Below are positions 3,197 to 41,100 of a stretch of DNA of 50,788 bases, in pieces. Location: the IMG/VR virus record IMGVR_UViG_3300030102_006999; one strand, 5' to 3'. The position numbers and the translations under genes were made by a program. The notes beneath the pieces are model-generated. The model saw only the letters and a program-made list of their open reading frames with translations, made no database searches and was not told the origin of the DNA. Every line of letters starts with the position of its first letter. The first letter of the stretch is position 1. The stretch comes from an uncultured virus (IMG/VR IMGVR_UViG_3300030102_006999). Taxonomy: Duplodnaviria; Heunggongvirae; Uroviricota; Caudoviricetes.

Positions 3197-4108
3197 ATGA
3201 CAAGTAGGCAAGAAATCCTAGAAGAAAGGCTCTTAAGAGAAAACATTCGAAGAGCTATTAATATCGTCAAAGATAGAAAACAACAAAAAGAAAATTATAT
3301 TCGCACAATCGTGCGTCACCTGATTAGTGAAGCCACTGTTACAAAATACGAATATACTTCATTAAATCTATTAGCTCACTTTATTAAAGAGGCAGTAGGT
3401 GATCCATCAAAGCCAGACTCTAACCCAGCTTTTAAAGATGCCTATACTGATCTTACTTCAAGTCACGAAGACAGAGAAAGGTTTGTAGAATATGTTTTGG
3501 ATTTTGCAAACGAAGATTTTAAAACTATTGACGCTGATAAAGAGCCTCAACCACTCGGACAAGATTTCTTAGAAAAAGGATTTGATTCTGAAAGGCCTCA
3601 AGAAGAAGAACCTGAAGAAGAAAAAGACGAAGTTATCACTGTTAGAATTGAAGATCTTGAAGATGGTGATGGAAATTTAGCACCTGATGAGACTGAAGCT
3701 GAAGAAGAGGAAGAAGATTTTCAATTAGGTGAAGATGCTGAAGAAATCACTCCTGAAGAAAACGCTGGTATTAAAAAGTACAGTAGAGAAGCTTATAAAA
3801 GAATCGGACCTTCATTACGAAGATATTACGGACAAGTTCAAAAAGATAGTCAAATTGATAAGCCAGTTGAGATTTCTGGTAAAGAATATCAAGCTGGAGA
3901 ACTTTCAGAAAGAGATTTATTCAAAATCTATCTTAAGAAAAATTTAGTTCTTTGGTCTGAAAGATATGAAGATGAGTTTTTCGATAAAGGTCCAGAAGTT
4001 GATGTTGACATTGGCACTCAAGGCGCCACAGAAGAAATTCCGGGCGAAGAAAACGAAGAAGAAATTTTAGGTGACGAGAGTGGAGAGGAAGAAGTATTTA
4101 AACTTTAA
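3197..4108 (+). CDS. Highly acidic hypothetical protein, possibly head-internal or scaffold-like
   Basis: 303 aa with poly-Glu tracts, GGAG SD, and an N-terminal helical segment ending IVRHLISE. Confidence 0.75.
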   Translation: MTSRQEILEERLLRENIRRAINIVKDRKQQKENYIRTIVRHLISEATVTKYEYTSLNLLAHFIKEAVGDPSKPDSNPAFKDAYTDLTSSHEDRERFVEYVLDFANEDFKTIDADKEPQPLGQDFLEKGFDSERPQEEEPEEEKDEVITVRIEDLEDGDGNLAPDETEAEEEEEDFQLGEDAEEITPEENAGIKKYSREAYKRIGPSLRRYYGQVQKDSQIDKPVEISGKEYQAGELSERDLFKIYLKKNLVLWSERYEDEFFDKGPEVDVDIGTQGATEEIPGEENEEEILGDESGEEEVFKL

Positions 4109-4149: not shown

Positions 4150-4283
4150 TTTATTAATCACTCCAAACACACTAATCATACTAATCACTCTAATATATAA
4201 TCATACTAAACATACTAATTAATAATCATACTAATACTTAATCACTCTAATATATAATCATACTATTACTTAATCACTCTTAT
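4143..4283. repeat. G-free direct-repeat array (8x TAATCA; 27-nt perfect repeat x2)
   Basis: No G on the + strand from 4143 to 4283. TAATCA at 4155, 4173, 4182, 4198, 4223, 4239, 4255, 4271. taatcactctaatatataatcatacta at 4182-4208 and 4239-4265. Confidence 0.9.
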
Positions 4284-4653
4284 GTCTAATTGGAAAAGAA
4301 AAAATAACTATAATGGTAAAAATAAAGATTATAGTATTATTAATAAATTAAGAAAAGAACGTAAGTCTAATGAAGAGTTTGAAATCATGCTTAATAACTT
4401 ATCATTAGAAGATATCGTTGCTTTAAAGTTAGAACTGTCATCAAAAGCTGTTTCGAATAGGATGTACGGATTCCCTATTTGGAATAGTTTAACGTCCTTA
4501 GTAAAAGAAGCAGTATTTAAATATGCATTGTCAGCAACCAGAACACAAATGGAAGCTATGAGATTTTTAGGATTGAAAGAAGATTCATTTCATATATTGA
4601 AGAAGAAGTATAAGGTAAAAGACTTTTTTCTTGACAAAGAGGAGAAAAGTTAA
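4282..4653 (+). CDS. Small basic protein with a C-terminal Fis/HTH_8-like helix-turn-helix
   Basis: ALSATRTQMEAMRFLGLKEDSFHILKKKY matches the Fis-type pattern AL-x-A-x-LG-x-L-x-KKY. Confidence 0.6.
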   Translation: MSNWKRKNNYNGKNKDYSIINKLRKERKSNEEFEIMLNNLSLEDIVALKLELSSKAVSNRMYGFPIWNSLTSLVKEAVFKYALSATRTQMEAMRFLGLKEDSFHILKKKYKVKDFFLDKEEKS

Positions 4654-4659
4654 TATAAT
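4631..4659 (+). promoter_or_regulatory. Consensus sigma70 promoter driving the downstream ncRNA
   Basis: TTGACA 4631-4636, 17 nt, TATAAT 4654-4659. Confidence 0.85.
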
Positions 4660-4665
4660 AAAGAT

Positions 4666-4840
4666 AGAAGTAAGTACAAAAGGGGAGTTTTATTTTTAAA
4701 GTAGGGTTCATTGTCTCTAACGAACCCGGGATCAAGGAGGATTTGCTAAAAGTTATGGAAAGTGTTTTCACCTCCCGAATTACAGAGAGGCTAAGAAGCT
4801 GGCAATCTAAGTGAACCGGCACTCACCTTGTACTATTTTA
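4666..4840 (+). ncRNA. Structured ~175-nt RNA, 6S-RNA-like rod with internal bubbles
   Basis: Nested pairings: AGTACAA 4673-79/TTGTACT 4828-34; GAGT 4685-88/ACTC 4821-24; GGTTCATT 4705-12/AGTGAACC 4810-17; GTCTCT 4713-18/AGAGGC 4786-91; GGAGG 4736-40/CCTCC 4771-75. Lies directly behind a perfect promoter. Ends are approximate. Confidence 0.55.
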
Positions 4841-4855
4841 AATAACAAAACAAAC

Positions 4856-5125
4856 ATGTTGCACGAAGATATGAAAGATATATTAAATCCAGATGAAGTA
4901 GTAGAGTTAGCATATTCAGAATTCGGAAGACTTTTTGATGCAGCTGACGAGTTTGAAGTTAAAATAGGAAGCGACGATGGTGGTAGAACTTTGGACCTCA
5001 TGGTTATAGGGTCTGAAAATGCCACATTACTAAGAACAGAAGTTCCGCCTCGATATAATGGTTATCGAACAGTAATAGTATATCGCTATGATCCTCCATA
5101 TGAGTTAAATACAGAAGAGGAATAA
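4856..5125 (+). CDS. Hypothetical acidic protein
   Basis: ORF 4811-5125; start moved to ATG 4856 (4871 also possible) because GTG 4811 lies inside the RNA stem. Confidence 0.7.
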   Translation: MLHEDMKDILNPDEVVELAYSEFGRLFDAADEFEVKIGSDDGGRTLDLMVIGSENATLLRTEVPPRYNGYRTVIVYRYDPPYELNTEEE

Positions 5126-5126
5126 A

Positions 5127-5792
5127 TTGAAAAGACTGATCATATCAGATACTCATATAGGCTCTAGATACTCTAGAAAAAAAGAGTTATATCACCTATT
5201 GAAAGAGGCTGAATATGATCAACTTATTTTAAACGGTGATATAATAGAGTTTTTAAAAGTTCCTACTTTTTCTAGAATCTCTCTAGAAATATTAAAAATA
5301 GCTAAAGAAAAATCTGATGAAATAATATATGTTATCGGCAATCATGATATTGCCATGAAAGATTTTGTAAATCAGAGTTTTGAAAATATTAAATTTGTTG
5401 AAGAATATTGCTTTGAAGAAAATGGTAGAAAGTTCAGAATAGAACACGGCGACAAATACGAAAAAGGCATTGTTCATTTTCGATTAGTTATGAATATTAT
5501 ATCAGCATTTCAAGACGCTATAGAAAAAATATTTGATATAGATTTATCTACTTGGTTTACTAACTTAAAAATAAACAGAAGAAAAATAAAAAGATTATGG
5601 GATATAATCGATCTCAATAACGATGTTGATGTGTTGATTGTTGGCCACACCCATATGCCAGAAGCAGTTATCTGGATTGATCAAGATGAAAAAATTAAAA
5701 CTTATGTCAACTGTGGGGATTGGGTACAACACGCGACATATGTCCAGATTGAAAATGGAGTAGTTAGGTTGAGGAACTATTTGAAAAAATAA
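5127..5792 (+). CDS. Metallophosphoesterase, LpxH/YbbF/PlcP-like
   Basis: Motifs SDTHIG, NGD, GNHD, HGD, GHTH and YVNCGDWV. Confidence 0.85.
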   Translation: MKRLIISDTHIGSRYSRKKELYHLLKEAEYDQLILNGDIIEFLKVPTFSRISLEILKIAKEKSDEIIYVIGNHDIAMKDFVNQSFENIKFVEEYCFEENGRKFRIEHGDKYEKGIVHFRLVMNIISAFQDAIEKIFDIDLSTWFTNLKINRRKIKRLWDIIDLNNDVDVLIVGHTHMPEAVIWIDQDEKIKTYVNCGDWVQHATYVQIENGVVRLRNYLKK

Positions 5793-5837: not shown

Positions 5838-6296
5838 GTGAGGTATTATATCCTGTTTTTTTTATTAATGATTATATTTGGATTTTTTTTCACCTCATTA
5901 TTATTTTATTTAAATCATAGATTTGTTGGTCATGGCAAACTAGGTAACTTGCCACTGTTAAAATATATCAAAAAAATGCACATTATTCACCATAGGAATG
6001 ATTACGGTGAGCACAGAAATGATTATTTAAAGCTACCTATATGGTCGAAGGGTTTATTTTTTTTAGCTTTTTTATTCGTATCTTTAGTATCACTACCATT
6101 TGCTTGTGGGTGCTTATTTTATGTATTTTACTACGAATGGTTGCATTATAAAATGCACAATGATGATCAAACCGGTTGGTGTTCTCGTCATCATTTTTTA
6201 CATCACAGAAAATCTGCAAGACATAATTTTTCAGGCACAATGCCTTTTATAGATAAAATTTTTGGAACGTATTACGAAGATAAAAATAATACTTGA
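5838..6296 (+). CDS. Fatty-acid hydroxylase / sterol-desaturase family membrane di-metal enzyme
   Basis: His boxes HRFVGH, HIIHH, HYKMH, HHFLHH; hydrophobic segments; C-terminal NFS...DKIFGT. Start may be ATG 5868. Confidence 0.85.
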   Translation: MRYYILFFLLMIIFGFFFTSLLFYLNHRFVGHGKLGNLPLLKYIKKMHIIHHRNDYGEHRNDYLKLPIWSKGLFFLAFLFVSLVSLPFACGCLFYVFYYEWLHYKMHNDDQTGWCSRHHFLHHRKSARHNFSGTMPFIDKIFGTYYEDKNNT

Positions 6297-6321
6297 CAAG
6301 AAGATCAGAACGGGCTATAAT
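6293..6321 (+). promoter_or_regulatory. Consensus sigma70 promoter for the tRNA-ClpP unit
   Basis: TTGACA 6293-6298, 17 nt, TATAAT 6316-6321. Confidence 0.85.
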
Positions 6322-6339
6322 AATATTATGATTAACAAA

Positions 6340-6416
6340 GAACCCTTAGCTCAGTTGGTCAGAGCACCCGGCTCATACCCGGAGGGTCGTAGGTTCAAGT
6401 CCTACAGGGTTCACCA
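6340..6416 (+). tRNA. tRNA with CAT anticodon, probably tRNA-Ile2 (lysidine); elongator Met not excluded
   Basis: Acceptor GAACCCT/AGGGTTC, D-arm GCTC/GAGC, loop CT-CAT-AC, T-arm GTAGG-TTCAAGT-CCTAC, encoded CCA. C4:G69 and C5:G68 pairs as in TilS substrates. Confidence 0.9.
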
Positions 6417-6420
6417 CTAC

Positions 6421-6497
6421 GCGCCCTTAGCTCAACAGGATAGAGCAACGGCCTTCTAAGCCGTAGGTTGCAGGTTCGAGTCCTGCAGGGCGTGCCA
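6421..6497 (+). tRNA. trnR: tRNA-Arg(TCT)
   Basis: Acceptor GCGCCCT/AGGGCGT, anticodon arm ACGGC-CT-TCT-AA-GCCGT, T-arm GCAGG-TTCGAGT-CCTGC, encoded CCA. Confidence 0.95.
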
Positions 6498-9748: not shown

Positions 9749-9777
9749 TTGACAATGACAATAAAGTAGGTTATAAT
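9749..9777 (+). promoter_or_regulatory. Consensus sigma70 promoter
   Basis: TTGACA 9749-9754, 17 nt, TATAAT 9772-9777. Confidence 0.85.
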
Positions 9778-18262: not shown

Positions 18263-18291
18263 TTGACAATGCTAAGATTGGGTGTTATAAT
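18263..18291 (+). promoter_or_regulatory. Consensus sigma70 promoter with extended -10
   Basis: TTGACA 18263-18268, 17 nt, TGn-TATAAT 18286-18291. Confidence 0.85.
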
Positions 18292-18760: not shown

Positions 18761-19059
18761 TGTTAAATATTGTGTTATCTGTTATTGTAGTTTTATTGCT
18801 TGCAGCCGTTGCTTTTTTGGTTTGGTTTACTTATAATTTAACCAGACAAATAAGATATTATGATGATGAACTAAGAGAAATCGTAGCAATCGTAAGAGAT
18901 TTTACAGAGCATTTAGATGCTGTTCATGAGATGGAAATGTTTTACGGTGACGAAACTTTAAGAAACTTATTGAGGCACTCTAAAGAAATCGTCAATACTT
19001 TTAGTTCATATGATCTTGAAGAAGATATAGAGGATTTTGATGACAATAGCGAAGCCTAA
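18757..19059 (+). CDS. Single-pass membrane protein
   Basis: N-terminal TM helix, acidic tail, AAGGAG SD. Confidence 0.75.
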   Translation: MMLNIVLSVIVVLLLAAVAFLVWFTYNLTRQIRYYDDELREIVAIVRDFTEHLDAVHEMEMFYGDETLRNLLRHSKEIVNTFSSYDLEEDIEDFDDNSEA

Positions 19060-19762
19060 GCGTAGAAGAAGAATTAGAAGAAGTAAGAACTCAAGAAACT
19101 ATTTTACGAAAGTGCACGAAGATGCTATAATCGAGTTCAACAACACAGCAAGTCTAAAAAGAAGGGAAGAGTTATACACAACCCTGATAGGCCCAGCTTT
19201 TAATGAAATGGTAGATAAAATTGTTTTTACTTATAGATTTACTAGTTTGCCAAATATTGATTCTTTGAGAGAGGAATGTAAAATCTGGCTTGTCACTATT
19301 CTTGGAAAGTTTAACCCAGATAAAGGATCTAAAGCTTTTTCATATTTTTCGGTTGTTACAAAAAACTGGTTTATTCAAAAGGTTAAAAAAAACAAGAAAA
19401 AGAACCAAAGAGAAATTGAGTTCCAAGATTTATCAAAAGACATGGAACTTCGTTATGTTGCTATAGAGAACGGATATGATGAAGAAAGAGAGAAAGATGA
19501 GTTTTGGCAACATTTGTGGACAGAGATTGGAACATGGGACACTGCTAATCTGAAAGAAAACGAAAGAAAAGTTCTAGAAGCAATAAAAATATTGTTAAGT
19601 TCTCCTGATGAAATAGAAATTTTTAATAAGAAAGCTATTTATTTGTACATGCGAGAGATTACTGGTTTAAATACCAAACAAATCGTAAACTGTCTCAATA
19701 AAATGAGAAAAAGGTATAGAACCTTTAAAACAAAGTGGGACAGAGGAGACACATTACATTGA
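19040..19762 (+). CDS. Phage RNA polymerase sigma factor (gp55-like, probably late)
   Basis: Region-2 motif KFNPDKGSKAFSYFSVVTKNWF, N-terminal NYF, and a C-terminal HTH-like MREITGLNTKQI. Confidence 0.75.
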   Translation: MTIAKPKRRRRIRRSKNSRNYFTKVHEDAIIEFNNTASLKRREELYTTLIGPAFNEMVDKIVFTYRFTSLPNIDSLREECKIWLVTILGKFNPDKGSKAFSYFSVVTKNWFIQKVKKNKKKNQREIEFQDLSKDMELRYVAIENGYDEEREKDEFWQHLWTEIGTWDTANLKENERKVLEAIKILLSSPDEIEIFNKKAIYLYMREITGLNTKQIVNCLNKMRKRYRTFKTKWDRGDTLH

Positions 19763-29941: not shown

Positions 29942-32196
29942 TGGCTATTAAAAAATATTTTGCTAACAAAGATAATACGATAACGAGTGCTTTTAGATCA
30001 AACTTATCGACACGAGGTACTGGGTCCAATATGGGCTTATCTGACATTTTAGAGACGTTTTCTATTTATGGTCAGGCAAGTTCTGATTCTACGGAACTAC
30101 AGAGAATATTAATTGAATTTCCAGTAGAAGACATTATCCAAGATAGGGCAGCTGGAACTATACCCGCCGGAGGCTCTGTAAGTTTTTATTTAAAAATGTA
30201 TAACGCAAAACATAGCCAAACTACACCAAAAGAATTAAAACTTGTGGTTTCTCCTATTTCTAGTTCTTGGCAAGAAGGTATTGGCTTAGATATGTCAGAA
30301 TACCAAGACGTCACAAAGAATGGAGAAGGCTCCAACTGGATTAACTCATCTGCGAATACTCCGTGGTTAAGAGAGGGGGGTGATTATTTATCATCTCCCG
30401 TATATTCTCAAACATTTTCGCAGGGAGACGAAGATTTAGAAATAAATATTACTAGTTTAGTAGATCAGTGGATTAATGGCAGTATTCCAAATTATGGAGT
30501 AGGTGTCCACCTAACATCTAGTCAAGAAGCTTATTATAATAAGTACTATCCTAGAGAGTCTGTTCAGTTTGATACACAAGCATTTTTATCTGGCTCTGCG
30601 CAAGATATGGAACTTACTGGCCCATCAACATTTTCTATGTGGGTAAAGCCAGACTCTATTGGTACAACACGATATATGTTATTTTGGCAGCAGGAATTGT
30701 TTGAGTCTTTCGGTCGAGTTTTATATGCAAATGCTCTCGGAGAATTAGTCTATAATAGAAATTACCTAAGACCAACTCCTCCCGGCGGCAACTCTCAAGC
30801 AAGTTACAAGACTGATAGCACACTGACAGCAGGTCAGTGGTCTCACATAGTTGTAGTAGACAGAGCAGATAATACAACACCAGAAATTTATATTGATGGC
30901 GCCCTAGATCCTTTATCTGCAATCACGCCAGCCACCCCTGATGTTATAGGAGTCGCGACAAACTATGATATGTTTGCTATCGGCGGCTCAAGAACTGGAG
31001 ATGCAAATAACTGGCTAGGACTAATCGATGATGTAGCTCATTTTGACAAAGCCCTTACTGAATCTGAAGTAAGCGAAATATATAATAGTGGCTGTCCTGT
31101 CGACATAAAAGAAACATCGGCTTATAGTAAAATCCAAAATTGGTGGGTTCACGGAGACGATCCAAGAGATGCTATTGAGCTTGGCACTCCGCCAACAACA
31201 ATAAGCATTCACGACAGAGCAGGTACATTGAATATGTACGCCACTGGATCTGGCGGAATGTCAATACAGGAAGGTAAGTGTTACGGACAAAACGGAACAG
31301 TTCCGGTGGGAACAGACGAAATAATAAACAGAGATGGTGCTACAACTTCTTATTATACAAAAAAGTTTTTTGCAAGAGGCTCCGAGTTTTTCTATAAAAG
31401 ACCTGTTATAGAAGCAAGATGGGATAGCTCTATAAAAGACGATAGAGGAAACGTACATAACGAAAGTATCCTACTACCATCTTCTGATAATACGAACTCT
31501 ATATATTTATACAATTCTCACGACGGAAAACTAGTAGATATTCCGGGCGCTGGCACAGGCGTTGGAGCTATGGTAGTTAAATTTTATGATACCGAAGAAT
31601 CAAGTGATGGTGAAATCACTGACACAACTCCCTCAACAGTGACGGCAGATAGAGTATCTAAAGGTATTTATAGGGCTTCATTTATTATAAATACAACAGC
31701 ATCGATAGGTTATGATAGGTGGTTCAACTCTACTCAAACCGCTTGCTACCATACCGGTAGTTTTCATATTAATGAAAGATCTGCCAAAGGACATAATCCA
31801 TATCCAGACTATGTAGTTTCTTTGCAAAACTTGAGATCGATATATTATTCTCACGAAACTGCAAGATTTAGATTTTACATTAGAGAAAAAGATTGGAGCC
31901 CTACTATTTATACAGTAGCAACTACAGAAACAGACACATTAACTATGCAGTCTTCTTCTTATCAAATCCATAGGTTAATTGATGATATGATAGTAGTACC
32001 ATTTGATACATCTACAGACAATAGCACTATGATGTCATATGATGTGAGTGGAAATTACTTTGATTTTGACATGGACATCCTAGAGCCGGGTTATTCTTAT
32101 GGAGTAAAGGTAGCATTTTATGATGATTCAGTAGAAAGCTATGTAGAGCAAACTCCCATCTGGAAATTTAGAGTTGAAAATCTGGAATCAAAATGA
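29941..32196 (+). CDS. Virion protein with a DNRLRE-like beta-sandwich and an inserted LamG (ConA-like) domain
   Basis: DNTI...RILIEF...WQEG...GGD...ITSLVDQW...NYG...F.RGSE..RPVIE. LamG motifs FSMWVKP, WSHIVV, IYIDG, IDDVAHFDKALT at ~30556-31290. Confidence 0.7.
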   Translation: MAIKKYFANKDNTITSAFRSNLSTRGTGSNMGLSDILETFSIYGQASSDSTELQRILIEFPVEDIIQDRAAGTIPAGGSVSFYLKMYNAKHSQTTPKELKLVVSPISSSWQEGIGLDMSEYQDVTKNGEGSNWINSSANTPWLREGGDYLSSPVYSQTFSQGDEDLEINITSLVDQWINGSIPNYGVGVHLTSSQEAYYNKYYPRESVQFDTQAFLSGSAQDMELTGPSTFSMWVKPDSIGTTRYMLFWQQELFESFGRVLYANALGELVYNRNYLRPTPPGGNSQASYKTDSTLTAGQWSHIVVVDRADNTTPEIYIDGALDPLSAITPATPDVIGVATNYDMFAIGGSRTGDANNWLGLIDDVAHFDKALTESEVSEIYNSGCPVDIKETSAYSKIQNWWVHGDDPRDAIELGTPPTTISIHDRAGTLNMYATGSGGMSIQEGKCYGQNGTVPVGTDEIINRDGATTSYYTKKFFARGSEFFYKRPVIEARWDSSIKDDRGNVHNESILLPSSDNTNSIYLYNSHDGKLVDIPGAGTGVGAMVVKFYDTEESSDGEITDTTPSTVTADRVSKGIYRASFIINTTASIGYDRWFNSTQTACYHTGSFHINERSAKGHNPYPDYVVSLQNLRSIYYSHETARFRFYIREKDWSPTIYTVATTETDTLTMQSSSYQIHRLIDDMIVVPFDTSTDNSTMMSYDVSGNYFDFDMDILEPGYSYGVKVAFYDDSVESYVEQTPIWKFRVENLESK

Positions 32197-35100
32197 CAAC
32201 AAGAGATCTTTTTACCAAAAAAACACCATATAAAATACTATCTTCCGAAACGCTAGATAAAATATCTGAAAACGTAGAATCTGCAGACAACATCAATCAA
32301 AGATTAGAAGAGAAAAATAGGTTTATTCCGGTAGTAAACTTTGAGTATCCTGAAAATTTTGCTAAATATGGAAAAGCAGAGGAATATTATAGAAATTCGT
32401 TTACAAGAATTCAAGATGATTATCCATATGATGGGTCTTTAAAAGAAAAAACAGAGTTTAGAAATCAATCTTCTTATTTAGATCTGTATTTACTAGACAA
32501 TAAGTATCCTAGGACAACGGGCCATGCTATTTTTTCTCCTAACGGATGGGGTACTGTTGCAGCCTCAACACCCACAACTCCAAGTGGGTATATTGGTTTA
32601 TCAGATAGTCCCGAATACGTTTACATCAAGGGTGGACCCAACCAAGCCCCTGAACAATTTTTAGACAAGCCATTAAAAAATCAGTTTGAAAAAGCCAACA
32701 AGTACGATCCTGACTTAAACCGACAGTCAAACCTAAAAATGGATTTCGAGGAAGGAATAACCGTAGAATTTTGGATGGAAAAGCCGGTTCTTATGAATAC
32801 TTCTTCTTATCCTCTTGCTGGAACTAGTATTGAAATACCCTTTATGGTATCTAATCAGACTTCAGGATCGTTCGCTGTACTTATAAATACATCAGATACG
32901 TCTCCTACTGCCGCTCCGTTTTCTATTCTTGCTACCTCCGGATCTACATCGGCTATTGTAAATATTCCATCTATTACTAATGCTGATTATCTTGCAGCCG
33001 GCTGGCACCATTTTGCTTTCTCTGTAAAATCCACGGGCGCCTCTCTATCTTTATCGGCTTATTTGGATGGAGAATCAAAAGGGACGTTCGATGCAGGCCC
33101 CGGAACAAACATGGGAGAAGTTACAGGCACCATTAATGCATCTTTGGGCGCCGGTACAACTCTGACATATCCATCTATCGGCCTAGAACTTCCTTTAGAC
33201 GGCTATGGTAAAATATCTGGCTCCATTGATGAGTTTAGGTATTGGAAAACAGAGAGAACACCAGCACAAATTGGAAAATATTGGTTCACGCAGTTCGGTG
33301 GAGGTACCAATACTGACACATCAAATACTGATTTGGGTGTATATTATAAATTTAACGAAGGTATAGTTGAAAATAATTCTATTGATTCAACGGTTCTGGA
33401 CTATTCTGGCAGAATATCTAATGGTAACTGGGTTGGATATTCTAACAACTCCAGATTGACATCTTCTGCTATCGATATTTACCTAGGTAAAAGCAGCGAA
33501 TTTAAAGACCCTATTATATATTCTAGTCATCCTGATGTCATATCTGTAACTAATGAACTTATTTCTCTAGGTATCGATCATGATACAACTAACAACTCTT
33601 CAATTTATAACTCGATTCCGAGCTGGATAACCGAAGAAGATGAGTTGGTGGGGAAAGATTTACTAAAACTTACACAAATACTATCTAGCTATTTTGATTC
33701 TTTGCACATGCAAATTGAAGCTATGCCTAGATTAAAAGATAAGGTCTATAACGACCCGTCTATAATAAAGCCTACAACTTTTTCAAGCAGATTATTGGAA
33801 TCTCAAGGCTTTGTGGCACCGGAAATATTTGCAGAAGCCGATGTTCTAGCCCAGATATTAAAAAGAGATGCTGATAGAAAGTATGAACTAGACTTATACG
33901 ACATCAAGAATGTTATTTATCAAAATGTTTACAACAATATTGTAAATATCTATAAATCTAAGGGTACTGAAAAGTCATTTAGAAACCTAATCCGTTGTTT
34001 TGGTGTAGACGAAGAGCTTATTAGGCTAAACATCTACGGAAATAATGTAGAATATCAAATAAAAGACAATTACAGAGAAACATCTGTAAAGAAAAACTAC
34101 GCTGATTTTAATCACCCGGATAGATTTGCCTCAACGGTATACCAACAAACCGCAAGTGCCGATTTAAACACAACTTCTTATATAAGCGGATCATCTTTAG
34201 CGGAATATGTACCATTCACAGTTGAATGTGAAGTTGTTTTTCCAAAAAAGCTTGAAAAAAGCAACTCAAACTATTTTGAAACACCTTTTGTAACATCTTC
34301 TTTGTTTGGTTTTCATGGTGCTGATAGCTTAACAGATTTTACTTGGCCAACTTTGGCTGCAGACGATGCAAATATACAAGTATACGCGGTTAGAGAAGAA
34401 AGAGAATCTAAAAATATCTATTTTAAACTCTCAAATCGTGCTGGTTCTATTGATATCACAACCCCTATTTATGAAGAAGTATATGATAATAAGAAATGGA
34501 ACCTAACAGTTAGAGTGAGACCAGAGCAGCAGCATGCTGATCTTGTTAGCGGGTCTGCAACAGGCAATCTCGTAGTAGAATTTTCAGGCCTCAACTCGGA
34601 AGCTGGAATAGTTGACGAACAATTCTTCTATACAGCTTCTGTTCCTTCCACTATTCTAACAACAGAGGGAAAAAGACTTTATGCAGGCGCACATAGAACA
34701 AACTTTACAGGGTCTGTTTTAAGTCAGACAGATGTCAAAATCTCTTCTGTGAGATATTGGGCAAGTTATCTGACCGACGACACCTTAAAGACGCACGCTA
34801 GAGATGCTTCCAGCCATGGATCATCTAGTCCCTATCAAAGTTCTTATCTTTGGCCAACTTCTATTGATGGAATTGATGTTCCTCAAGAAGAAACATTGGC
34901 TCTAAACTGGAATTTTGGAAATGTAATCTCTTCTGATTCTGGGATATCTGGTATCCCTACCATTTCTGACGCAGGTTATTATGTAGCAGATATATCTTCT
35001 GGATCACTAGACCTGACATCTAGATATGGATGGCTTGGGAACGTACTAAAATACCAACATACTGGCCGGGGTGACTTTTACATTCCAAATGACAATAAAG

Positions 35101-38100
35101 TTGTCGATGTAAAATACATTTATAGTGGAAAGCTAACAGGCCCAGAAGTTATTCAGTCTTCCGACATGATTAATATACTTGGAGAGTCTGAATTATACTT
35201 CGACAGAGATTCTAGGCCCGTAAACTTTTTCTACGCTATTGAAAAGAGCATGTATCAGACCATTTCAGACGAAATGCTCAAGATGTTTAGCACAATCAAA
35301 GATTTTAGCAACTTAATCGGAGAGCCTGTCAATAGATATAGACAAAACTATAAGTCTATGGAAAAATTAAGGCACTTATTTTTCGAAAATGTAGAAAACA
35401 CTCCTAGTTTAGACAAATATATTGATTTTTATAAGTGGATAGATTCATCTTTGAATGAGATGATTCAGCAGTTAGTACCGATGTCCGCAGATGTTTCTGA
35501 TGAGATAAGAAATATGGTCGAAAGCCATGTCTTAGAAAGAAATAAATATCAAACTAAGTTCCCTACATTAGAATTTACCCCCACAGATCCCAATGCGGGG
35601 ATGCAGGGTATCAACAGATTATTGTATAACTGGAAATATGACCACCACCCTGTCAGTAACCAACAGAATGAAAACTGCAAATGGTGGAAAACTAGAGCAG
35701 ATCGAACAGAAACTCCAGCAATTTCTTCAGGAGATCCTCTAGTAGACGAAGGTCGACAAAGAATATTGGATGTTAAGTTAACTGCCCTAAATAGGAGGTA
35801 CAATACCCCTCTTAGATTGGAAACAGGCCTACAAAGGGCTATTAAGGGCGGCAATAACACTAAAAATGTCAAAGGAATTGACATAACGAGAGTTAACGCC
35901 AAGTTCGGTACAACAGATGGGGTTAGAATCACTAAAGCGGAAAGCCTCGAAGACTGTACAGATGTTTTAGATCCAAATAAGAAAAATTATGTGTCCCTAT
36001 GGACAAAAGATGTTCCTGATGAAGAATATCTGAATGCCTATGGCAAAACAGTATTGCCCCTTGAAGCTAAGTTTTCTGATGCCAATTTAACATATGTTGG
36101 CGGAGGTACAGCGATTGTAAATACTCATAGAGATGTCTATGGTCCAGATGCAGAAACCCCAGCACAAGGCCCTTTCACAAATCAACACGTCGGCGGTTTT
36201 CCGTTCCGACATGTTCCTGTAAACGATGGGACTGATAGCAGTTTAAACAGAATAGAAGGCTGGAAATATGACATATCTGGCGGATTCCGCTTCATATATC
36301 AAGACGCAGACAAACCACGAGCCGTCTATTATCGAGACGAAACAGCGAAGCGTCCACTTAATATTAAGAATATAAAAGGTGCTTACGGAAACTTTACTAA
36401 AAACTGGGAAGTGGTCCAGTCTGCCGGTAGAATGATGAATAATAAAGCATGGGTTTCTGCCGAAGGTTGGGATTTACACCCAGAAGGAACTCCTTCTACT
36501 TGGGTTTCTGGACTAAGTGACACTCCTAAAATACAAAGAGGTAGAAATGAGTCAGTTATTGTTTCTAGATTTTCTGCTCCCGGTGGACCCGATACAATGG
36601 GAGACTCAAATGGCGGTCCGGGCTTAGATTATTTATCAGCAGAATATTCGTTCAATAACGATATGAATGCTCGAAATTGGGATGTACGAAGCGCCAATCA
36701 ACTTTTTTTGACATCTCATGTAAATCAGTTTGGTTTTTTCTCGAATGAGGGAAATCTTTTGGATGCTGGCTCATCGGAAGTCACACCTTTGGATTATTCT
36801 GGAACAGGATCCATATATCAAGTCAATAGGAACACTCTTAGAAGACTAGAGATGAGCGGAACTGCAAAAATAACTGGAAGCCAACACGACAATTTTTACA
36901 TTCAACATTCAATACCAAGGTCTGACCTTAATTATAGTTGGGTCAACTCTTCGTATGTGACAGTTGATCCTTCGGCTTTGGGCTATTGGACCGAAGGTCT
37001 TTTTGACTATACAGCAAAAGTAGCAACAGTTTACCGAGAAGACTTTACATCATCATTTGGATCAGAATGGAATGTAGTAAACGAGGTAGTGCCACGTAAA
37101 TCTAAAAATTCAGACAACTGGGTGGCCAGATTTGGAGATTGGACCGAATCCGGCGCCGGATCAAATAGAATATTGGCCCTAACAACTGATTTTGAGTTGC
37201 CAATTCAAATCTCTTATGAGTATGCAAGAGGGCAATATGAAAATAGACAGAACAAAGTATTTGCCACATTTGGTGAAAATACATCAGGAGCATATACTGT
37301 ACTTTCGGGATCAGGAAAGTGTGTTGATACATGGGGAACAACAGCTCCGCCGCCCGGTAAGAATGATACATTTACAATATCTTTTTGGTTCAAGCCAGCT
37401 AGCAGCACGTTTACGAATCAGCAGTTTTTATTTTCTTGGGATGACCAAACAAGTAATAATGCTCCCGCTCGTCTATACATAACACCTACAGAAATAGGAT
37501 ATTATCAAGAATACACTGGTGGCACAAGCTTAAATATTGAAGCGATACATACCCATTCATCCTCTGAATGGACACATGTCACATTAACTCACGACGTTGG
37601 ATCTGCCAATGCTGGTGATTTGCCAACTTTATACATAAATGGAGTCTCTGCTTCTCTTAACGTGCAATCTAATACCGTCACGGGCACTGGAGAACTTGGA
37701 AAAGACTTTACATCCTTCATTATCGGAGGCAGAGATCCATATAATACTGTATCCGCACCAGATGCCTACCCAAACTATTGTTATACGGGATCTGTTGATA
37801 ATATATATTGGCACGCAGATATTCTATTACCAGAACAAATTGAAGAGTTATATAATAACGGATTCCCACCCAATGTCGAAAACTTATCGTTTTTTGTCGG
37901 ATTCAATGACGCACCCAACTATCCAAATCATTACTTAAATATAGGTGAAAACATCAATGATCGAAAGAATTATGTTAATGATATTGCCTCCCCGCCCCCT
38001 CCACCCAACTACACCGTTTATGACTTTGAGGGTTTTAATCCTGCTAACCAATTAAACTTCTTTGCATTGCAGAACAGTTCTGCTTTCGGGATTGATGACA

Positions 38101-41100
38101 CGCTTTTTACCCTTGAGGAATATCCCGGATATAATATGACAAGTCCAAGTCCTTCTGCTGGACAAACATTAAAGTTACAATACAGTACAGATTTAGGTTC
38201 AAACTGGCAAGATCTTGAGATATTGGATGATTCAAATCTTTTCCAAGGAAGAGATGTGGGATTCATTACAAGGACAGCAAATCTTTACCCTTCCGCAACA
38301 GAAACTACTGCAAGAATCAGATTTATTCAAACATCGTATACAAACGCTAAAAGAGATAACTGGGCAGTCAATTCGGTCCAAATAGACAGAACTTTTGTTA
38401 TTAACCCTGTCACATTCTCGCCGTATTCTGATTATGTATCTTACTTTAATGATCCAGATTATCAATTTGGCAAAGATCGATCCGCATTAGGATCAGATCC
38501 GATGTTCTTGCCAACAACATATAATGGATTAAATTACAACATTTACGAACCAATAACGGGACTAAATAATCTTACTTTAGGTTATGATTCTTCGGCAACC
38601 TTGGCAGATTATGTAAATGAAGATATGTTTCAAGCTTTGTCTATCGATTTCGAAGCCGCAACACTGAATGCGCTACTTCTAAAAAGAAATGGCCCTTACG
38701 GATACCCTATTTTCAAACAGGTTAGAACTGGCGAGCATGCAATCGCAAGAAGCTTGAGAAGAAATAACCTTATTGCTTGCACTCAAGAGCCGGGTAGCAC
38801 AATTGACCTGAACGGACAGCAATACATAGAAAAATATGGAAAAACAACAGTCTGTCGCGAGCCTTCCGTAAACTCAAGTTTTGGAACATTAGATTATTTG
38901 CTAGGCTTCAGAGTTTCTACAGAAACAAAGGGTAAAAATCCGGAATACTTAGTGCGCCCTGTGCAAATTAAGACTACATATGGAAACAATCTTGGATATT
39001 TCTCTAGTCCAATCTTAAATGTGTGTGCAGATTATGACAAAACCGGATTATCTTCTCAACCACAAGCTTACGACACGATTAAGGGGCTGTACTTGGATGG
39101 GGCGCTTAACGATGTCAATAGTCCAGTTTACAGCTTGATAAGTTTAAAATACTCCGAAAGAGTATTCCCTGCCGAGCTAAACTCATATTCTGGAATAAAC
39201 AGAAAAAGGACAGACTATATAGAAAGATTTTGGAAAGATGATATAAGAAACAGAATTATTCTGGGAAGAACAAAGTTCTACAATGCAAGAAGAAACTCTG
39301 CAAATAAATTTATTAATCAACAATCTTCTTGGGCAATAGACGCAAACTCTTGGTTTACATATCAGACTTTACCAGTTACTGGTTCAGAAGTTTCCGGATC
39401 TACTAGAATCGGACTGTGTAATCCTATTGCGAAAATATCACGAGCTGGAGGTTCTAGCGTCGAAGAACAAAATGCAGCTTCCGGCGAGCTTCAGAACGGC
39501 TATGTTTTCCAATGGAAACACTGGGAGTCGGACCCTGATGGTGGCACAGGATTTTTCCCTGTACCCGAATACCGTCCCAATGATCTTAGGATGGGCGCCC
39601 TATATTCAAGAAAGCAAGATGTGCACTCATATTATTCTGTAGTGAATCCTAGTGGTATGGAGTTTATAAATGTCAATTTAACAAGTTCTAATTACTTAAA
39701 TGATTTTGAATTATCCTTATCTTCAACAGAAAACCCAACAGGCCCCGGACTTCATGATGGGGATACAATCGGCTGGATCAATGGTGCTGTTGGTGCCGCT
39801 AAGTTTGAAACAGCAGATTTGGCTGGCAAAATAATCAATAACCAATTTGTCTCTGAATCTCAAAATCCATTTGATAATGACTACGATCAATATAACAAAG
39901 AAATGATATTGAAAAATAAAGATTATTCTGTAGTTCCAGAATTCAAGATTAGCGATCATATGAAATTTTATTTTGAAGAAAAGGGTCGCGACTTTTTGAC
40001 AGATAATCCATCTCAACTTAATATTCATGGTACCACTCTATCATCTTCGACGGACGATTTTTATACTACATATTCTTTCAGCGACTTCATGAAATACTTT
40101 GAAGTTATCGATTCGGATCATTCCAAGATGGATGATTTAGATAAAACCTTGACATTGAGATGCTCTGCTATTAAGAAGTTTTTGCCATACGATGGATTCT
40201 ATCCCGCAGAGAGAACTTTGGAAATATCAAATTTATTCCAAGAGAATTATTACACCTACATGTCAGAATCTGTACCTCCATTATTGGCAGGAGATTCAGC
40301 ACAAAGACCAATTATATCGGCATTTACCTCTCCGGGTATTCTTTATAACACGATTAAATCAGGAATAGCAGTTGACTATCCAATATATACATCTTCATAC
40401 GGTACTGTTAACTATTCTGCGATTGATCATTTATCCCAGTCACATGATACTAGCTATTACGCGCTAGGTACCGGATCACGAGGGCATCAGGGATGGGATT
40501 ATAGAGTTCCCTTCGAAGCCATATTAGCGCCAGAAATAGTAAATGGCATAAAATTTTATGATATGGAGCCAAATCCGGAAGTGAAACTACCTGCTGCTGG
40601 TTCGAACGACCATGTGATTACTGCTTTGGTGGCACCAGTAGACGATAACCTATATAAAAGAGCTATGTCAAACTTCTTGGCTGAAACTTCAGAATTTTTC
40701 CTAGATAAAGGCTTGTCAACTTTTGTATCGGATGTAGATGATGGAGGATATTTCTTTGAATCTGGATCTTACGGTATGAGAATACGCCTAAGAAGAAGTA
40801 TGAATAAACAAAGAACATCGGGAATCTCTTTCCCGGTACCACAAGACTCTCCGCAAGATGAGGGCTTACATGAGACAATTACTATGTATTCTAGGCCAAC
40901 AGCTTTTGGTCCAGCAGTTGCAGGATCAGACAATTTCTTCATGACAGGATCCCAAAGTACTTCTGGGCTAGATAGATGGCAANNNNNNNNNNGATGGCAA
41001 AACTCTGATAGTCTTTATGGGAAAAATCCATCATTCACACCACCTTACTATGACGGTGAGTGCTGGTATGATATTGTTTACTCTACAAATCAGGCTGAAA

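What the first reader, a model, noticed from the sequence alone, without database searches (positions are those of the whole stretch)
4631..4840. Candidate phage-encoded 6S-like RNA (sigma70-holoenzyme decoy) behind a perfect sigma70 promoter
Seen: TTGACA-17-TATAAT followed by ~175 nt of gene-free sequence, more GC-rich than its flanks, folding as nested helices: 4673-88/4821-34, 4705-12/4810-17, 4713-18/4786-91, 4736-40/4771-75, with internal bubbles. An alternative local hairpin CCTC 4771-74/GAGG 4787-90 follows CACCU, and CGGCAC lies at 4817-22. Established, recalled from memory and not aligned: 6S RNAs are ~180-nt rods mimicking an open promoter, with CACCU plus a small hairpin on the 3' side of the bubble and CGGCA(C/U) near the closing stem. 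Inference: the phage makes an RNA that sequesters host sigma70-RNAP, silencing host and early phage promoters (including its own) and favouring the phage sigma at 19040. This would be an RNA-based early-to-late switch, for which I know no characterised phage example.
Basis: partly seen in the sequence, partly recalled or inferred. Interest (0 to 1): 0.88.

Follow-up and report, generated by a model that had tools for sequence, protein, structure and literature searches.

The report
New pseudoknotted phage RNA, not 6S
The flagged gap encodes a real, intricately folded small RNA with its own strong promoter that many uncultured marine phages keep, but it folds as a four-helix, double-pseudoknot knot rather than the rod of a 6S RNA, and what it does is still open.

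Summary
The perfect TTGACA-17-TATAAT promoter (4631-4659) and the gene-free stretch behind it are real. The single sequence does not fold better than shuffles (z -0.80). Comparison settles it. The element recurs in 99 marine metagenome stretches and 11 IMG/VR contigs, and not in 185,579 prokaryote genomes searched with the same 22-base pattern. A covariance model aligns 85 copies, 79 of them distinct. 21 of 25 modelled pairs show compensating double changes, with 92.3% of cells paired against 75.8% in shuffles.

The fold is a long closing stem (9-27 bp), three further helices and two pseudoknots, so it is not a rod with a central bubble. Its 4705-12/4810-17 helix shows no covariation and clashes with proven helices. 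Its recalled 6S motifs (CACCU, CGGCAC) are not conserved. No Rfam family matches, 6S included.

The promoter is conserved with the RNA in 71 of 77 variants. In some lineages a phage tmRNA gene follows within 14 to about 225 nt, and in others tRNA genes lie 1.5-2.3 kb downstream.

My best reading is a new, self-contained stable phage RNA acting through its conserved core. Whether it acts in trans or in cis is unresolved, and a 6S-like role is unlikely (about 5%).

The parts
4631..4659 (+). Sigma70-type promoter: -35 TTGACA at 4631-4636, 17-nt spacer, -10 TATAAT at 4654-4659. The -35 box lies inside the 3' end of the upstream gene. The predicted start is about 4666-4667.
   Evidence: 12 of 12 match. 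71 of 77 distinct homologues with enough upstream sequence have at least 10 of 12 matches with a 17-nt spacer (18 nt in one), 6-46 nt before the modelled closing stem.
4666..4840 (+). Predicted extent of the RNA, from the predicted start to the end of the extended closing stem.
   Evidence: Covariance-model hit at 4678-4834, 120.2 bits, E 2.9e-36, the only hit in the window; 124.9 bits with model R2. Stem extension was computed. The ends are inferred, not measured.
4667..4688 (+). P1, 5' strand of the closing stem (modelled core 4680-4688). It pairs with 4821-4839.
   Evidence: All 9 core pairs carry compensating double changes across the family. The stem is 9-27 bp long in 37 representatives.
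4689..4703 (+). J1/2, an A/U-rich single-stranded joiner, variable in sequence and length.
   Evidence: Alignments A4 and A7.
4704..4727 (+). P2 hairpin: stem 4704-4709/4722-4727 and a 12-nt loop at 4710-4721.
   Evidence: The sixth pair covaries (UA 35, GC 14, AU 11). The third pair flips U-A to A-U in two copies found independently of the search pattern.
4713..4718 (+). PK1, 5' strand (in the P2 loop). It pairs with 4786-4791.
   Evidence: 96.4% of cells paired against 44.7-78.4% when slid. There are 3 compensatory cells; the rest is invariant or changed on one side.
4728..4776 (+). P3: base pairs 4728-4731/4773-4776 enclosing a variable arm (4732-4772) that holds the purine run AAGGAGG.
   Evidence: The three basal modelled pairs (4729-31/4773-75) are almost always paired and all covary. 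G4728-C4776 was read from the sequence and not modelled. The distance from P2 to the conserved J3/4 motif is 17 to 91 nt.
4777..4797 (+). J3/4, the most conserved joiner. It holds the 3' strand of PK1 (4786-4791) and the 5' strand of PK2 (4794-4796).
   Evidence: Consensus and conservation in 34 representatives.
4798..4820 (+). P4 hairpin: stem 4798-4802/4816-4820 and a 13-nt loop whose nucleotides 4806-4808 form PK2 with 4794-4796. It abuts P1 with no spacer.
   Evidence: P4 is 100% paired and all 5 pairs covary in A7. PK2 is 87.6% paired with 32 compensatory cells; 0 of 500 shuffles reach that, and slid controls give 1-37%.
4821..4839 (+). P1, 3' strand of the closing stem.
4282..4653 (+). 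Upstream gene, 123 aa: a conserved basic N-terminus and a C-terminal stretch that looks like a helix-turn-helix (my reading of the sequence). No significant Pfam, PHROG or PDB match.
   Evidence: It is syntenic with the RNA in 19 of the 21 representatives whose upstream flank was long enough (22 examined; the exceptions are L081 and L106).
4856..5125 (+). Downstream gene, 89 aa, predicted alpha-beta-beta-alpha-beta fold, function unknown.
   Evidence: It follows the RNA in most lineages but not in the L025 group, L073, L081 or L106. AlphaFold mean pLDDT is 82.5, with no PDB match at E<=0.001.

Best explanation
Shown: the stretch is a member of a previously uncatalogued family of phage non-coding RNAs of about 120-195 nt. 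Each copy is transcribed from its own consensus sigma70-type promoter. The fold is a long terminal stem P1 that pairs the two ends, three further helices (P2, a variable P3, and P4 stacked directly on P1), and two pseudoknots (P2 loop with J3/4; J3/4 with P4 loop).

Inferred: it is a self-contained, stable RNA made early by host RNA polymerase. It is either ended at the U-rich tract behind P1 or cut out of the early transcript, as tRNAs and tmRNA are. It acts through its conserved knotted core by binding a specific partner, most likely a host or phage protein, possibly connected with the tRNA/tmRNA neighbourhood in which it sits. It is not a 6S RNA homologue and does not have the 6S architecture.

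My odds: real new structured RNA family, 0.95; not a 6S family member, 0.95; stand-alone or processed trans-acting RNA rather than a purely cis-acting leader, about 0.5.
For: Family and structure:
- The pattern finds 99 metagenome stretches, 9 IMG/VR stretches and 0 stretches in the prokaryote genomes.
- All 85 loci that carry the element match model R2, at E 1.9e-40 to 3.1e-10.
- 21 of 25 pairs have double changes, 92.3% of cells are paired against 75.8% in shuffles and 37-55% when slid, and 0 of 500 shuffles reach the covariation score.
- PK2 is supported by 32 compensatory cells.
- RNAalifold on the alignment predicts P1, P2 and P4 and no rod.

Self-contained gene:
- The promoter is conserved in 71 of 77 variants.
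- In the window the extended stem begins about 7-8 nt after the -10 box, which is where transcription should start.
- The terminal stem is 9-27 bp, as in stable RNAs.
- A U-rich tail follows the stem in 17 of 37 representatives.
- The element is single-copy in a complete 193-kb phage genome.

Independent module:
- The neighbours differ in the L025 group, L073, L081 and L106.
- In L073 a tmRNA gene starts 14 nt after the RNA. In L025, L034 and L080 it starts about 225 nt after.
- tRNA genes lie 1.5-2.3 kb downstream in the window and in L001-L006.
- The other three perfect early promoters of the window lead straight into genes or tRNAs without such an RNA.
Against: - No transcript ends were measured. 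The only RNA-library data are assembled contigs that run across the promoter and into the next gene (4526-4685, 4766-4913, 4542-4879), so they do not show a discrete RNA.
- 20 of 37 representatives lack a U-rich tail.
- In most lineages the next gene starts within a few tens of nucleotides and I noticed no promoter of its own for it by eye. The RNA is therefore at least also the 5' leader of an operon.
- No partner is identified. Both neighbouring proteins gave no family or fold match.
- The P2 sequence was the search bait, so its near-invariance is partly ascertainment. Only two copies (L130, L132) were found by another route.
Confidence: 0.5

Rival explanations
1. Cis-acting leader of the early operon. 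The folded RNA would work on the transcript that carries it, in one of three ways: as a ligand- or factor-sensing attenuator whose closing stem plus U tract is the terminator; as an RNA polymerase-modifying antiterminator like HK022 put; or as a 5' structure that stabilises or processes the downstream tRNA/tmRNA/mRNA.
For: - It is always the first thing transcribed from the promoter, and co-oriented genes follow closely.
- The U-rich tract after P1 in 17 of 37 representatives could make P1 a terminator stem.
- Conserved joiners, pseudoknots and a variable peripheral arm are typical of riboswitch aptamers.
- It sits upstream of unrelated genes, as aptamers often do.
- In L007 the same slot before the tmRNA gene holds two micro-ORFs with runs of Cys codons, which look like leader peptides.
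- HK022 putRNA is a promoter-proximal phage RNA that acts alone on RNA polymerase (PMC9378689; I saw the search listing and the start of the abstract).
Against: - Closing stems of 15-27 perfect or near-perfect pairs are too stable to act as a switch.
- I noticed no alternative (anti-terminator) pairing by eye; no systematic search was made.
- 20 of 37 representatives have no U tract.
- Only one of the four perfect early promoters in the window carries the element, unlike nut/put sites, which follow each early promoter.
- The downstream genes are not metabolic and give no hint of a ligand.
Confidence: 0.3
2. One reading: the RNA binds host sigma70 holoenzyme and sequesters it (6S-like decoy), helping the switch to phage-sigma-dependent late transcription.
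For: - It has a strong early promoter and could therefore be abundant.
- It has a long closing stem and an A/U-rich single strand (J1/2) next to it.
- Early genes use consensus sigma70 promoters, and a weak match to a late sigma factor lies at 19037-19762 (phrog_234, E 5.9e-06).
Against: - No Rfam 6S-type match was found in the window or in 20 homologues at E<=10.
- There is no central bubble between two helical arms. The 3' side of the would-be bubble is the covarying P4 hairpin, stacked on P1 with no spacer, and the candidate second arm (4705-12/4810-17) has no covariation.
- Minimal members are about 120 nt with a 10-11-bp stem and short hairpins, far from a promoter-length duplex.
- According to the abstract of PMC8876501 (start of abstract seen), the bubble flanked by two helical arms is the minimal working unit of 6S-1 RNA.
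- The recalled motifs are not conserved.
Confidence: 0.05
3. A new self-cleaving or otherwise catalytic RNA that processes the early transcript, for example by freeing the downstream tmRNA, tRNA or mRNA with a defined end.
For: - The core is compact and pseudoknotted, with a small set of near-invariant unpaired nucleotides and variable peripheral stems. From my own knowledge, this resembles small ribozyme classes that are common in phage-rich metagenomes.
- It lies immediately upstream of a tmRNA gene in L073.
Against: - No match to any ribozyme family in Rfam.
- No candidate cleavage site can be named.
- A ribozyme would not need its own promoter and a long closing stem.
Confidence: 0.07
4. 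Not an RNA at all: a small protein-coding gene or a DNA-level site (operator or origin) behind the promoter.
For: - Mechanical ORFs overlap the stretch: 4556-4822 on the minus strand (88 aa) and a 19-codon ORF after AAGGAGG that I read from the sequence.
- The upstream protein may bind DNA.
Against: - Substitutions are compensatory across four helices and one pseudoknot, not synonymous.
- Indels in P3 are of any length.
- Only 6 of 37 representatives have a frame open across the element.
- The 19-codon frame is not kept in L003 (read by eye).
Confidence: 0.02

Closest known systems
6S RNA (Rfam RF00013 and related RNA-polymerase-binding RNAs such as Ms1)
   Same: Similar size (about 120-195 nt), a terminal stem pairing the 5' and 3' ends, and transcription from a strong sigma70-type promoter.
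   Different: - No model match.
- It is a four-helix junction with two pseudoknots instead of a rod with a central bubble.
- No conserved 6S sequence features.
- Polymerase binding is untested.
T4 small stable RNAs rnaC and rnaD ('species 1 and 2'), annotated in the T4 tRNA cluster with no stated function
   Same: Phage-encoded RNAs of about 120-140 nt lying with tRNA genes and presumably cut from a common precursor. Spacing to the neighbouring RNA gene is only 1-14 nt (T4 annotation; L073).
   Different: - Not homologous: model R1 finds nothing at rnaC or rnaD, and the best hit in the 7-kb T4 region is 11.9 bits elsewhere.
- rnaC folds with what I read as a tRNA-like T arm, which this RNA lacks.
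- This RNA has its own promoter.
HK022 put RNA (promoter-proximal phage RNA that makes RNA polymerase termination-resistant; PMC9378689, listing and start of abstract seen)
   Same: A phage RNA element placed directly behind an early promoter that works as folded RNA.
   Different: As I recall it, put is two simple stem-loops without a closing stem or pseudoknots, and it follows each early promoter. Here the fold is much more complex, and only one of four perfect early promoters carries it. No sequence comparison was possible.
Orphan complex-folded RNA motifs of marine phages and metagenomes (e.g. manA RF01745, wcaG RF01761)
   Same: Conserved pseudoknotted motifs in 5' leaders of genes of uncultured marine phages, with function unknown or only guessed.
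   Different: Neither these nor any of the other 4,227 Rfam models match. The downstream genes are different, and the closing stem is much longer here.

Membership tests
6S RNA (RF00013) | Match to the curated covariance model | tested here: not met
   No hit at gathering score in the window. No 6S hit at E<=10 in 4550-4950 or in 20 diverse homologous loci.
6S RNA (RF00013) | Rod-like fold: a large central bubble flanked by a closing stem and a second long helical arm | tested here: not met
   The closing stem is present. The only candidate for the second arm (4705-12/4810-17) has 78.5% paired against 78.7% in shuffles and 0 compensatory cells. P2, P3 and P4 and two pseudoknots occupy that space.
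   Both strings fall in positions that vary or covary across the family. Whether these strings define 6S RNAs is itself only a recollection.
6S RNA (RF00013) | Binds sigma70 holoenzyme and templates product RNA | not testable with these tools
   This needs biochemistry.
tRNA / tmRNA / tRNA-like RNAs | Detected by ARAGORN or by the Rfam tRNA, tmRNA or YrlA models; T-arm motif | tested here: not met
   ARAGORN finds only tRNA-Met and tRNA-Arg at 6340-6497. Rfam tmRNA hits in related loci begin after the element; one permuted-tmRNA hit in L073 overlaps its last 13 nt. The 'GGTTC' of P2 is a base-paired strand: U-A flips to A-U in L130 and L132.
Known riboswitch and ribozyme classes (Rfam 15) | Match to any curated model | tested here: not met
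Intrinsically terminated small RNA gene | Own promoter, and a stem followed by a U run at the 3' end | tested here: inconclusive
   The promoter is present in 71 of 77 variants. A U-rich tail follows the closing stem in 17 of 37 representatives; in the window there is only U4, which sits inside the extended stem.

The most novel reading that the evidence does not exclude
The RNA is a new kind of phage host-takeover or counter-defence molecule. Under this reading it is an abundant, early, aptamer-like RNA that captures a specific host protein or signalling nucleotide with its double-pseudoknot core. That would make it an RNA 'sponge' or decoy with a fold unrelated to 6S RNA. Its place beside phage tmRNA and tRNA genes would point to the translation or ribosome-rescue machinery, or to nucleases that attack it, as the target.
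Probability: 0.2. Interest if true: 0.88.

Novelty: categorically new. Interest (0 to 1): 0.62.

Why it matters
Phage non-coding RNAs with complex, conserved tertiary folds are rare, and almost none has a known job. This family is widespread in marine metagenomes: 99 stretches came from one exact-pattern scan. It moves between phage lineages together with its own promoter, keeps two pseudoknots through compensating mutations, and sits with phage tRNA and tmRNA genes.

That combination suggests a specific molecular partner, so it makes a tractable target. The RNA is short enough to synthesise, its promoter should work with E. coli-type polymerase, and clear tests exist for each rival role (decoy, switch, antiterminator, ribozyme).

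The work also corrects an attractive but unsupported label. Filing this as a phage 6S RNA would be wrong on present evidence.

Tried and rejected
- **Single-sequence folding.** The plus strand gives z -0.80 and the minus strand z -1.91. This is not informative.
- **Nucleotide and protein searches of cultured phages.** blastn of 4282-5130 and tblastn of the upstream protein found nothing.
- **Nearest cultured relatives.** By a baseplate protein these are Microcystis phage Mel-JY01 and Flavobacterium 'immuto' phages, at 32-34% identity. Model R1 finds no convincing copy in them or in a 484-kb uncultured phage (best E 0.015).
- **Whole genome of the window.** None is held. Metagenome records behind L073, L025, L034, L081 and L106 are not held either, so the tmRNA genes cut by locus ends could not be completed.
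- **RNA-library contigs.** X18 covers 4526-4685 and 4766-4913, X19 covers 4542-4879, X20 covers 4381-4628 on the other strand, and X21 covers nothing. These are assembled contigs, so they give no ends, strand or level. The uncovered parts of the 1,401-nt stretch prove nothing.
- **MAFFT plus RNAalifold.** Without a structural model this found only P2 and P4, because the closing-stem strands were misaligned. MFE-based and duplex-based parsing per sequence was inconsistent and was replaced by the covariance-model alignments.
- **Neighbouring proteins as clues.** There was no Pfam or PHROG family. Only 5 homologues of the 89-aa protein turned up in the 5.8-billion-protein set, none of them named. 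The AlphaFold models gave no Foldseek PDB match at E<=0.001. The best hits were an acyl-CoA synthetase domain at E 6.9e-03 and a KH domain at E 5.8e-02 for the small protein, and nothing below E 2.9 for the upstream protein, whose model is poor (pLDDT 62.9).
- **T4 rnaC/rnaD.** Not homologous.
- **Literature.** Searches for phage-encoded 6S-like RNAs and for structured RNAs of phages listed no paper whose title or abstract start described this element. In the catalogue of about 10,000 candidate viral structured RNAs (PMC10690425; passages and part of the supplements searched) a 14-base core string was not found. Three supplement files could not be searched, so the motif may still be listed there.
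- **Earlier notes of this scan.** Look-ups by place and by sequence gave nothing.
- **Resemblances considered and dropped.** I compared short stretches from memory with 5S rRNA, the RNase P conserved region and the L11-binding rRNA region. I dropped all three because the order of elements differs or the similar strand is a freely covarying stem. No test was run on these.
Full report
**What is at the coordinates.** The window is part of a large, A+T-rich tailed phage. All long ORFs are on the + strand. It has baseplate, PhoH-like and ClpP-like protease genes, two tRNAs, and a weak match to a late sigma factor at 19037-19762. At 4631-4659 there is a 12-of-12 match to TTGACA-17-TATAAT. Sites with at most one mismatch number 7 in the window against 0.83 expected, and 0 of 100 shuffles reach 7. 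Four perfect ones (4631, 6293, 9749, 18263) lie on the + strand in the first 18.3 kb. The -35 box lies in the last codons of ORF 4282-4653, and the next conserved ORF starts at ATG 4856. Taken alone, the 186-nt stretch does not fold better than shuffled versions: -42.1 kcal/mol, z -0.80, and 44 of 200 shuffles fold as well.

**Relatives.** The upstream protein led to 7 IMG/VR loci, and the intergenic stretch behind it is conserved in 6 of them at about 70-76% identity. A 22-base pattern from the most conserved hairpin found 9 stretches in IMG/VR and 99 in marine metagenome contigs. It found none in one genome for each of 185,579 prokaryote species. After removing duplicates and four truncated copies, 84 distinct variants remained. 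A profile of the upstream protein found two further loci, L130 and L132. Their hairpin differs from the bait, yet they match the covariance model at E 1.3e-24 and 1.3e-23.

**Structure.** I built a covariance model (R1) from 33 trimmed sequences with a hand-set structure, aligned all copies to it (84 hits, E 6.2e-44 to 2e-14; one hit in the window at 4678-4834) and counted pairs. A second model (R2) added the base of the third helix, and 85 copies (79 distinct) aligned to it.

On that alignment, 25 pairs in four helices are 92.3% paired. Shuffles give 75.8% and slid partners give 37-55%. 21 of 25 pairs have at least one compensating double change, with 314 such cells against 94.6 in shuffles, and 0 of 500 shuffles reach the observed score. 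These alignments were fitted to the model, which favours the model. However, the closing-stem strands have unrelated sequences in different lineages, and these can be read directly. RNAalifold run on the alignment also predicts P1, P2 and P4 on its own.

The helices in window coordinates are:
- **P1:** 4680-88/4821-29, extending to about 4667-4839.
- **P2:** 4704-09/4722-27.
- **P3 base:** 4728-31/4773-76, around a variable arm.
- **P4:** 4798-4802/4816-20, abutting P1 without a spacer.

Two further pairings cross these helices. PK1 joins the P2 loop (4713-18) to J3/4 (4786-91). It is 96.4% paired, mostly through one-sided U-A/U-G changes, with 3 compensatory cells and 12 unpaired cells at its end pair. 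PK2 joins 4794-96 to the P4 loop (4806-08). It is 87.6% paired with 32 compensatory cells, 0 of 500 shuffles reach that, and slid controls give 1-37%. In the L025 group PK2 seems to use a register shifted by one or two nucleotides. I read this by eye, and it counts there as unpaired.

- Its outermost helix is right.
- Its helix 4713-18/4786-91 is PK1.
- Its helix 4705-12/4810-17 is not supported: 78.5% paired against 78.7% in shuffles and no double change. It would destroy P2 and P4.
- Its helix 4736-40/4771-75 can form in this lineage, but relatives lacking the complementary string keep 4728-31/4773-76 instead.
- CACCU lies in the variable P3 arm, and CGGCAC is the covarying 3' strand of P4 plus the first P1 nucleotide. 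Neither is conserved as sequence.

The molecule is therefore a four-helix junction with two pseudoknots on a long handle. It is not two helical arms around a bubble.

**Known families.** Rfam 15 gives only the two tRNAs at gathering score. At E<=10 there is nothing meaningful in 4550-4950: three matches at 16-19 bits and E about 3.5-3.8. Across 20 diverse homologues, no family recurs over the body of the element; the single overlap is a permuted-tmRNA hit in L073 that covers only its last 13 nt. No 6S, Ms1, Y-RNA-like, riboswitch or ribozyme model matches it. T4 rnaC and rnaD, the classical phage stable RNAs of unknown role, are not hit by the model.

**Context.** A promoter with at least 10 of 12 matches and a 17-nt spacer (18 nt in one copy) precedes the RNA in 71 of 77 distinct variants that have enough upstream sequence. 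In the window the extended stem starts about 7-8 nt after the -10 box, so the RNA would begin flush with its closing stem. The closing stem is 9-27 bp in 37 representatives (below 85% identity), and a U-rich tail follows it in 17 of these 37.

The upstream 123-aa gene accompanies the RNA in 19 of the 21 representatives whose upstream flank was long enough; 22 were examined, and L081 and L106 are the exceptions. The small downstream gene accompanies it in most. The L025 group has a different downstream ORF, L073 none within reach, and L081 and L106 have different neighbours on both sides.

The Rfam scan of the homologues brought an unexpected result: a tmRNA gene starts 14 nt after the RNA in L073, and about 225 nt after it in L025, L034 and L080. 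L007 has a 49%-identical copy of the upstream gene but no copy of the RNA. Instead it has two micro-ORFs with runs of Cys codons and then a full tmRNA gene (134.9 bits) in the same place. tRNA genes lie 1.5-2.3 kb downstream in the window and in L001-L004 and L006. The element is single-copy in a 193-kb IMG/VR genome rated complete. The other three perfect promoters of the window lead directly into a Shine-Dalgarno site plus ORF, or into the tRNAs, without such an RNA.

**Expression.** One coded metatranscriptome run holds contigs over 4526-4685 and 4766-4913, and a second run (RNA by guess only) holds one over 4542-4879 from a close relative. These are assembled contigs. They show that sequence of this region is present in RNA libraries, but not where transcripts start or end. 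They also run across the promoter.

**Interpretation.** Three things are shown: a new RNA family, its fold, and its promoter. What follows is inference. Several features resemble stable, excised RNAs: the end-to-end closing stem, often long enough to be a double-strand-specific nuclease substrate; the frequent U-rich tail; the tandem placement with tmRNA; the mobility of the promoter-RNA cassette between gene contexts; and its presence at only one of four early promoters. A near-invariant knotted core implies a specific partner. I put about 0.5 on a stand-alone or processed trans-acting RNA.

The main rival, at about 0.3, is a cis-acting leader (attenuator, antiterminator or stabiliser). The element is always first in its transcription unit, the next gene usually has no visible promoter of its own, and the U tract could make P1 a terminator. 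Against a switch, stems of 15-27 pairs cannot plausibly open.

A ribozyme gets about 0.07, a 6S-like polymerase decoy about 0.05, and a coding or DNA-level reading about 0.02. Only 6 of 37 representatives have a frame open across the element.

**Neighbouring proteins.** They gave no lead. There were no Pfam or PHROG families. The AlphaFold model of the 89-aa protein is good (pLDDT 82.5, alpha-beta-beta-alpha-beta) and that of the upstream protein is poor (62.9). Neither has a PDB match at E<=0.001. The upstream protein has a strictly conserved basic N-terminus, predicted disordered, with 54 invariant columns among 8 sequences. It could bind nucleic acid. Whether it binds this RNA or the promoter is untested.

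**Earlier notes of this scan.** A word search returned unchecked AI notes on other genomes. They describe promoter-driven, pseudoknotted RNAs of about 130-190 nt just ahead of phage tRNA or tmRNA genes (e1-5982827, e1-5703573). One claims that a similar core is built into a phage tmRNA (e1-5826909, marked as partly fallen on a later check). I had already found the tmRNA adjacency in my own loci. Sequence look-ups did not link those notes to this family, so they may or may not be the same RNA.

**Verdict.** What is there is a new, widespread, double-pseudoknotted phage RNA family of unknown function.

Noticed in passing
window 6293-6321, 9749-9777, 18263-18291: Three more perfect TTGACA-17-TATAAT promoters on the + strand, all in the first 18.3 kb. 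They lie before the weak sigma-factor match at 19037 and the structural genes. They lead directly into the tRNA pair, a small ORF and another small ORF. This suggests an early region read by host sigma70 polymerase.
   Followed up: partly
L073 1-306 (- strand); L025 726-822; L034 724-822; L080 725-822; L007 3678-4029: Phage-encoded tmRNA genes (Rfam RF00023; full length and 134.9 bits in L007) directly downstream of the RNA or of the homologous upstream gene in related marine phage contigs. No tmRNA was found in the 50.8-kb window itself.
   Followed up: partly
L007 about 3442-3534 and 3561-3662: Two tandem micro-ORFs, each with a run of five Cys codons followed by G-C-C. They lie between the homologue of the upstream gene and the tmRNA gene, in the slot where other phages carry the RNA. 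They could be leader peptides or small Cys-rich peptides.
   Followed up: no
window 4282-4653: The 123-aa upstream protein has a strictly conserved, basic and predicted-disordered N-terminus, and a C-terminal stretch that looks like a helix-turn-helix. It has no Pfam, PHROG or PDB match. It could be a nucleic-acid-binding partner of the promoter or of the RNA.
   Followed up: partly
window 32193-42524: A 3,443-aa ORF, followed by ORFs of 1,292 aa and at least 1,082 aa, with no PHROG match at E<=1e-5. It lies downstream of baseplate genes and may encode giant tail-fibre or virion proteins.
   Followed up: no
window 6340-6497; L001-L006: tRNA-Arg(tct) is conserved 1.5-2.3 kb downstream of the RNA in every related locus with enough flank. 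tRNA-Met(cat) accompanies it in the window, L002, L003 and L004, and tRNA-Asn in L002.
   Followed up: partly
window 4732-4772 and homologous P3 arms: Most lineages carry a purine run resembling a Shine-Dalgarno sequence (AAGGAGG, AGGGGG) in the 5' half of the variable P3 arm. The minimal members (L025 group, L073, L081, L106) lack it.
   Followed up: no
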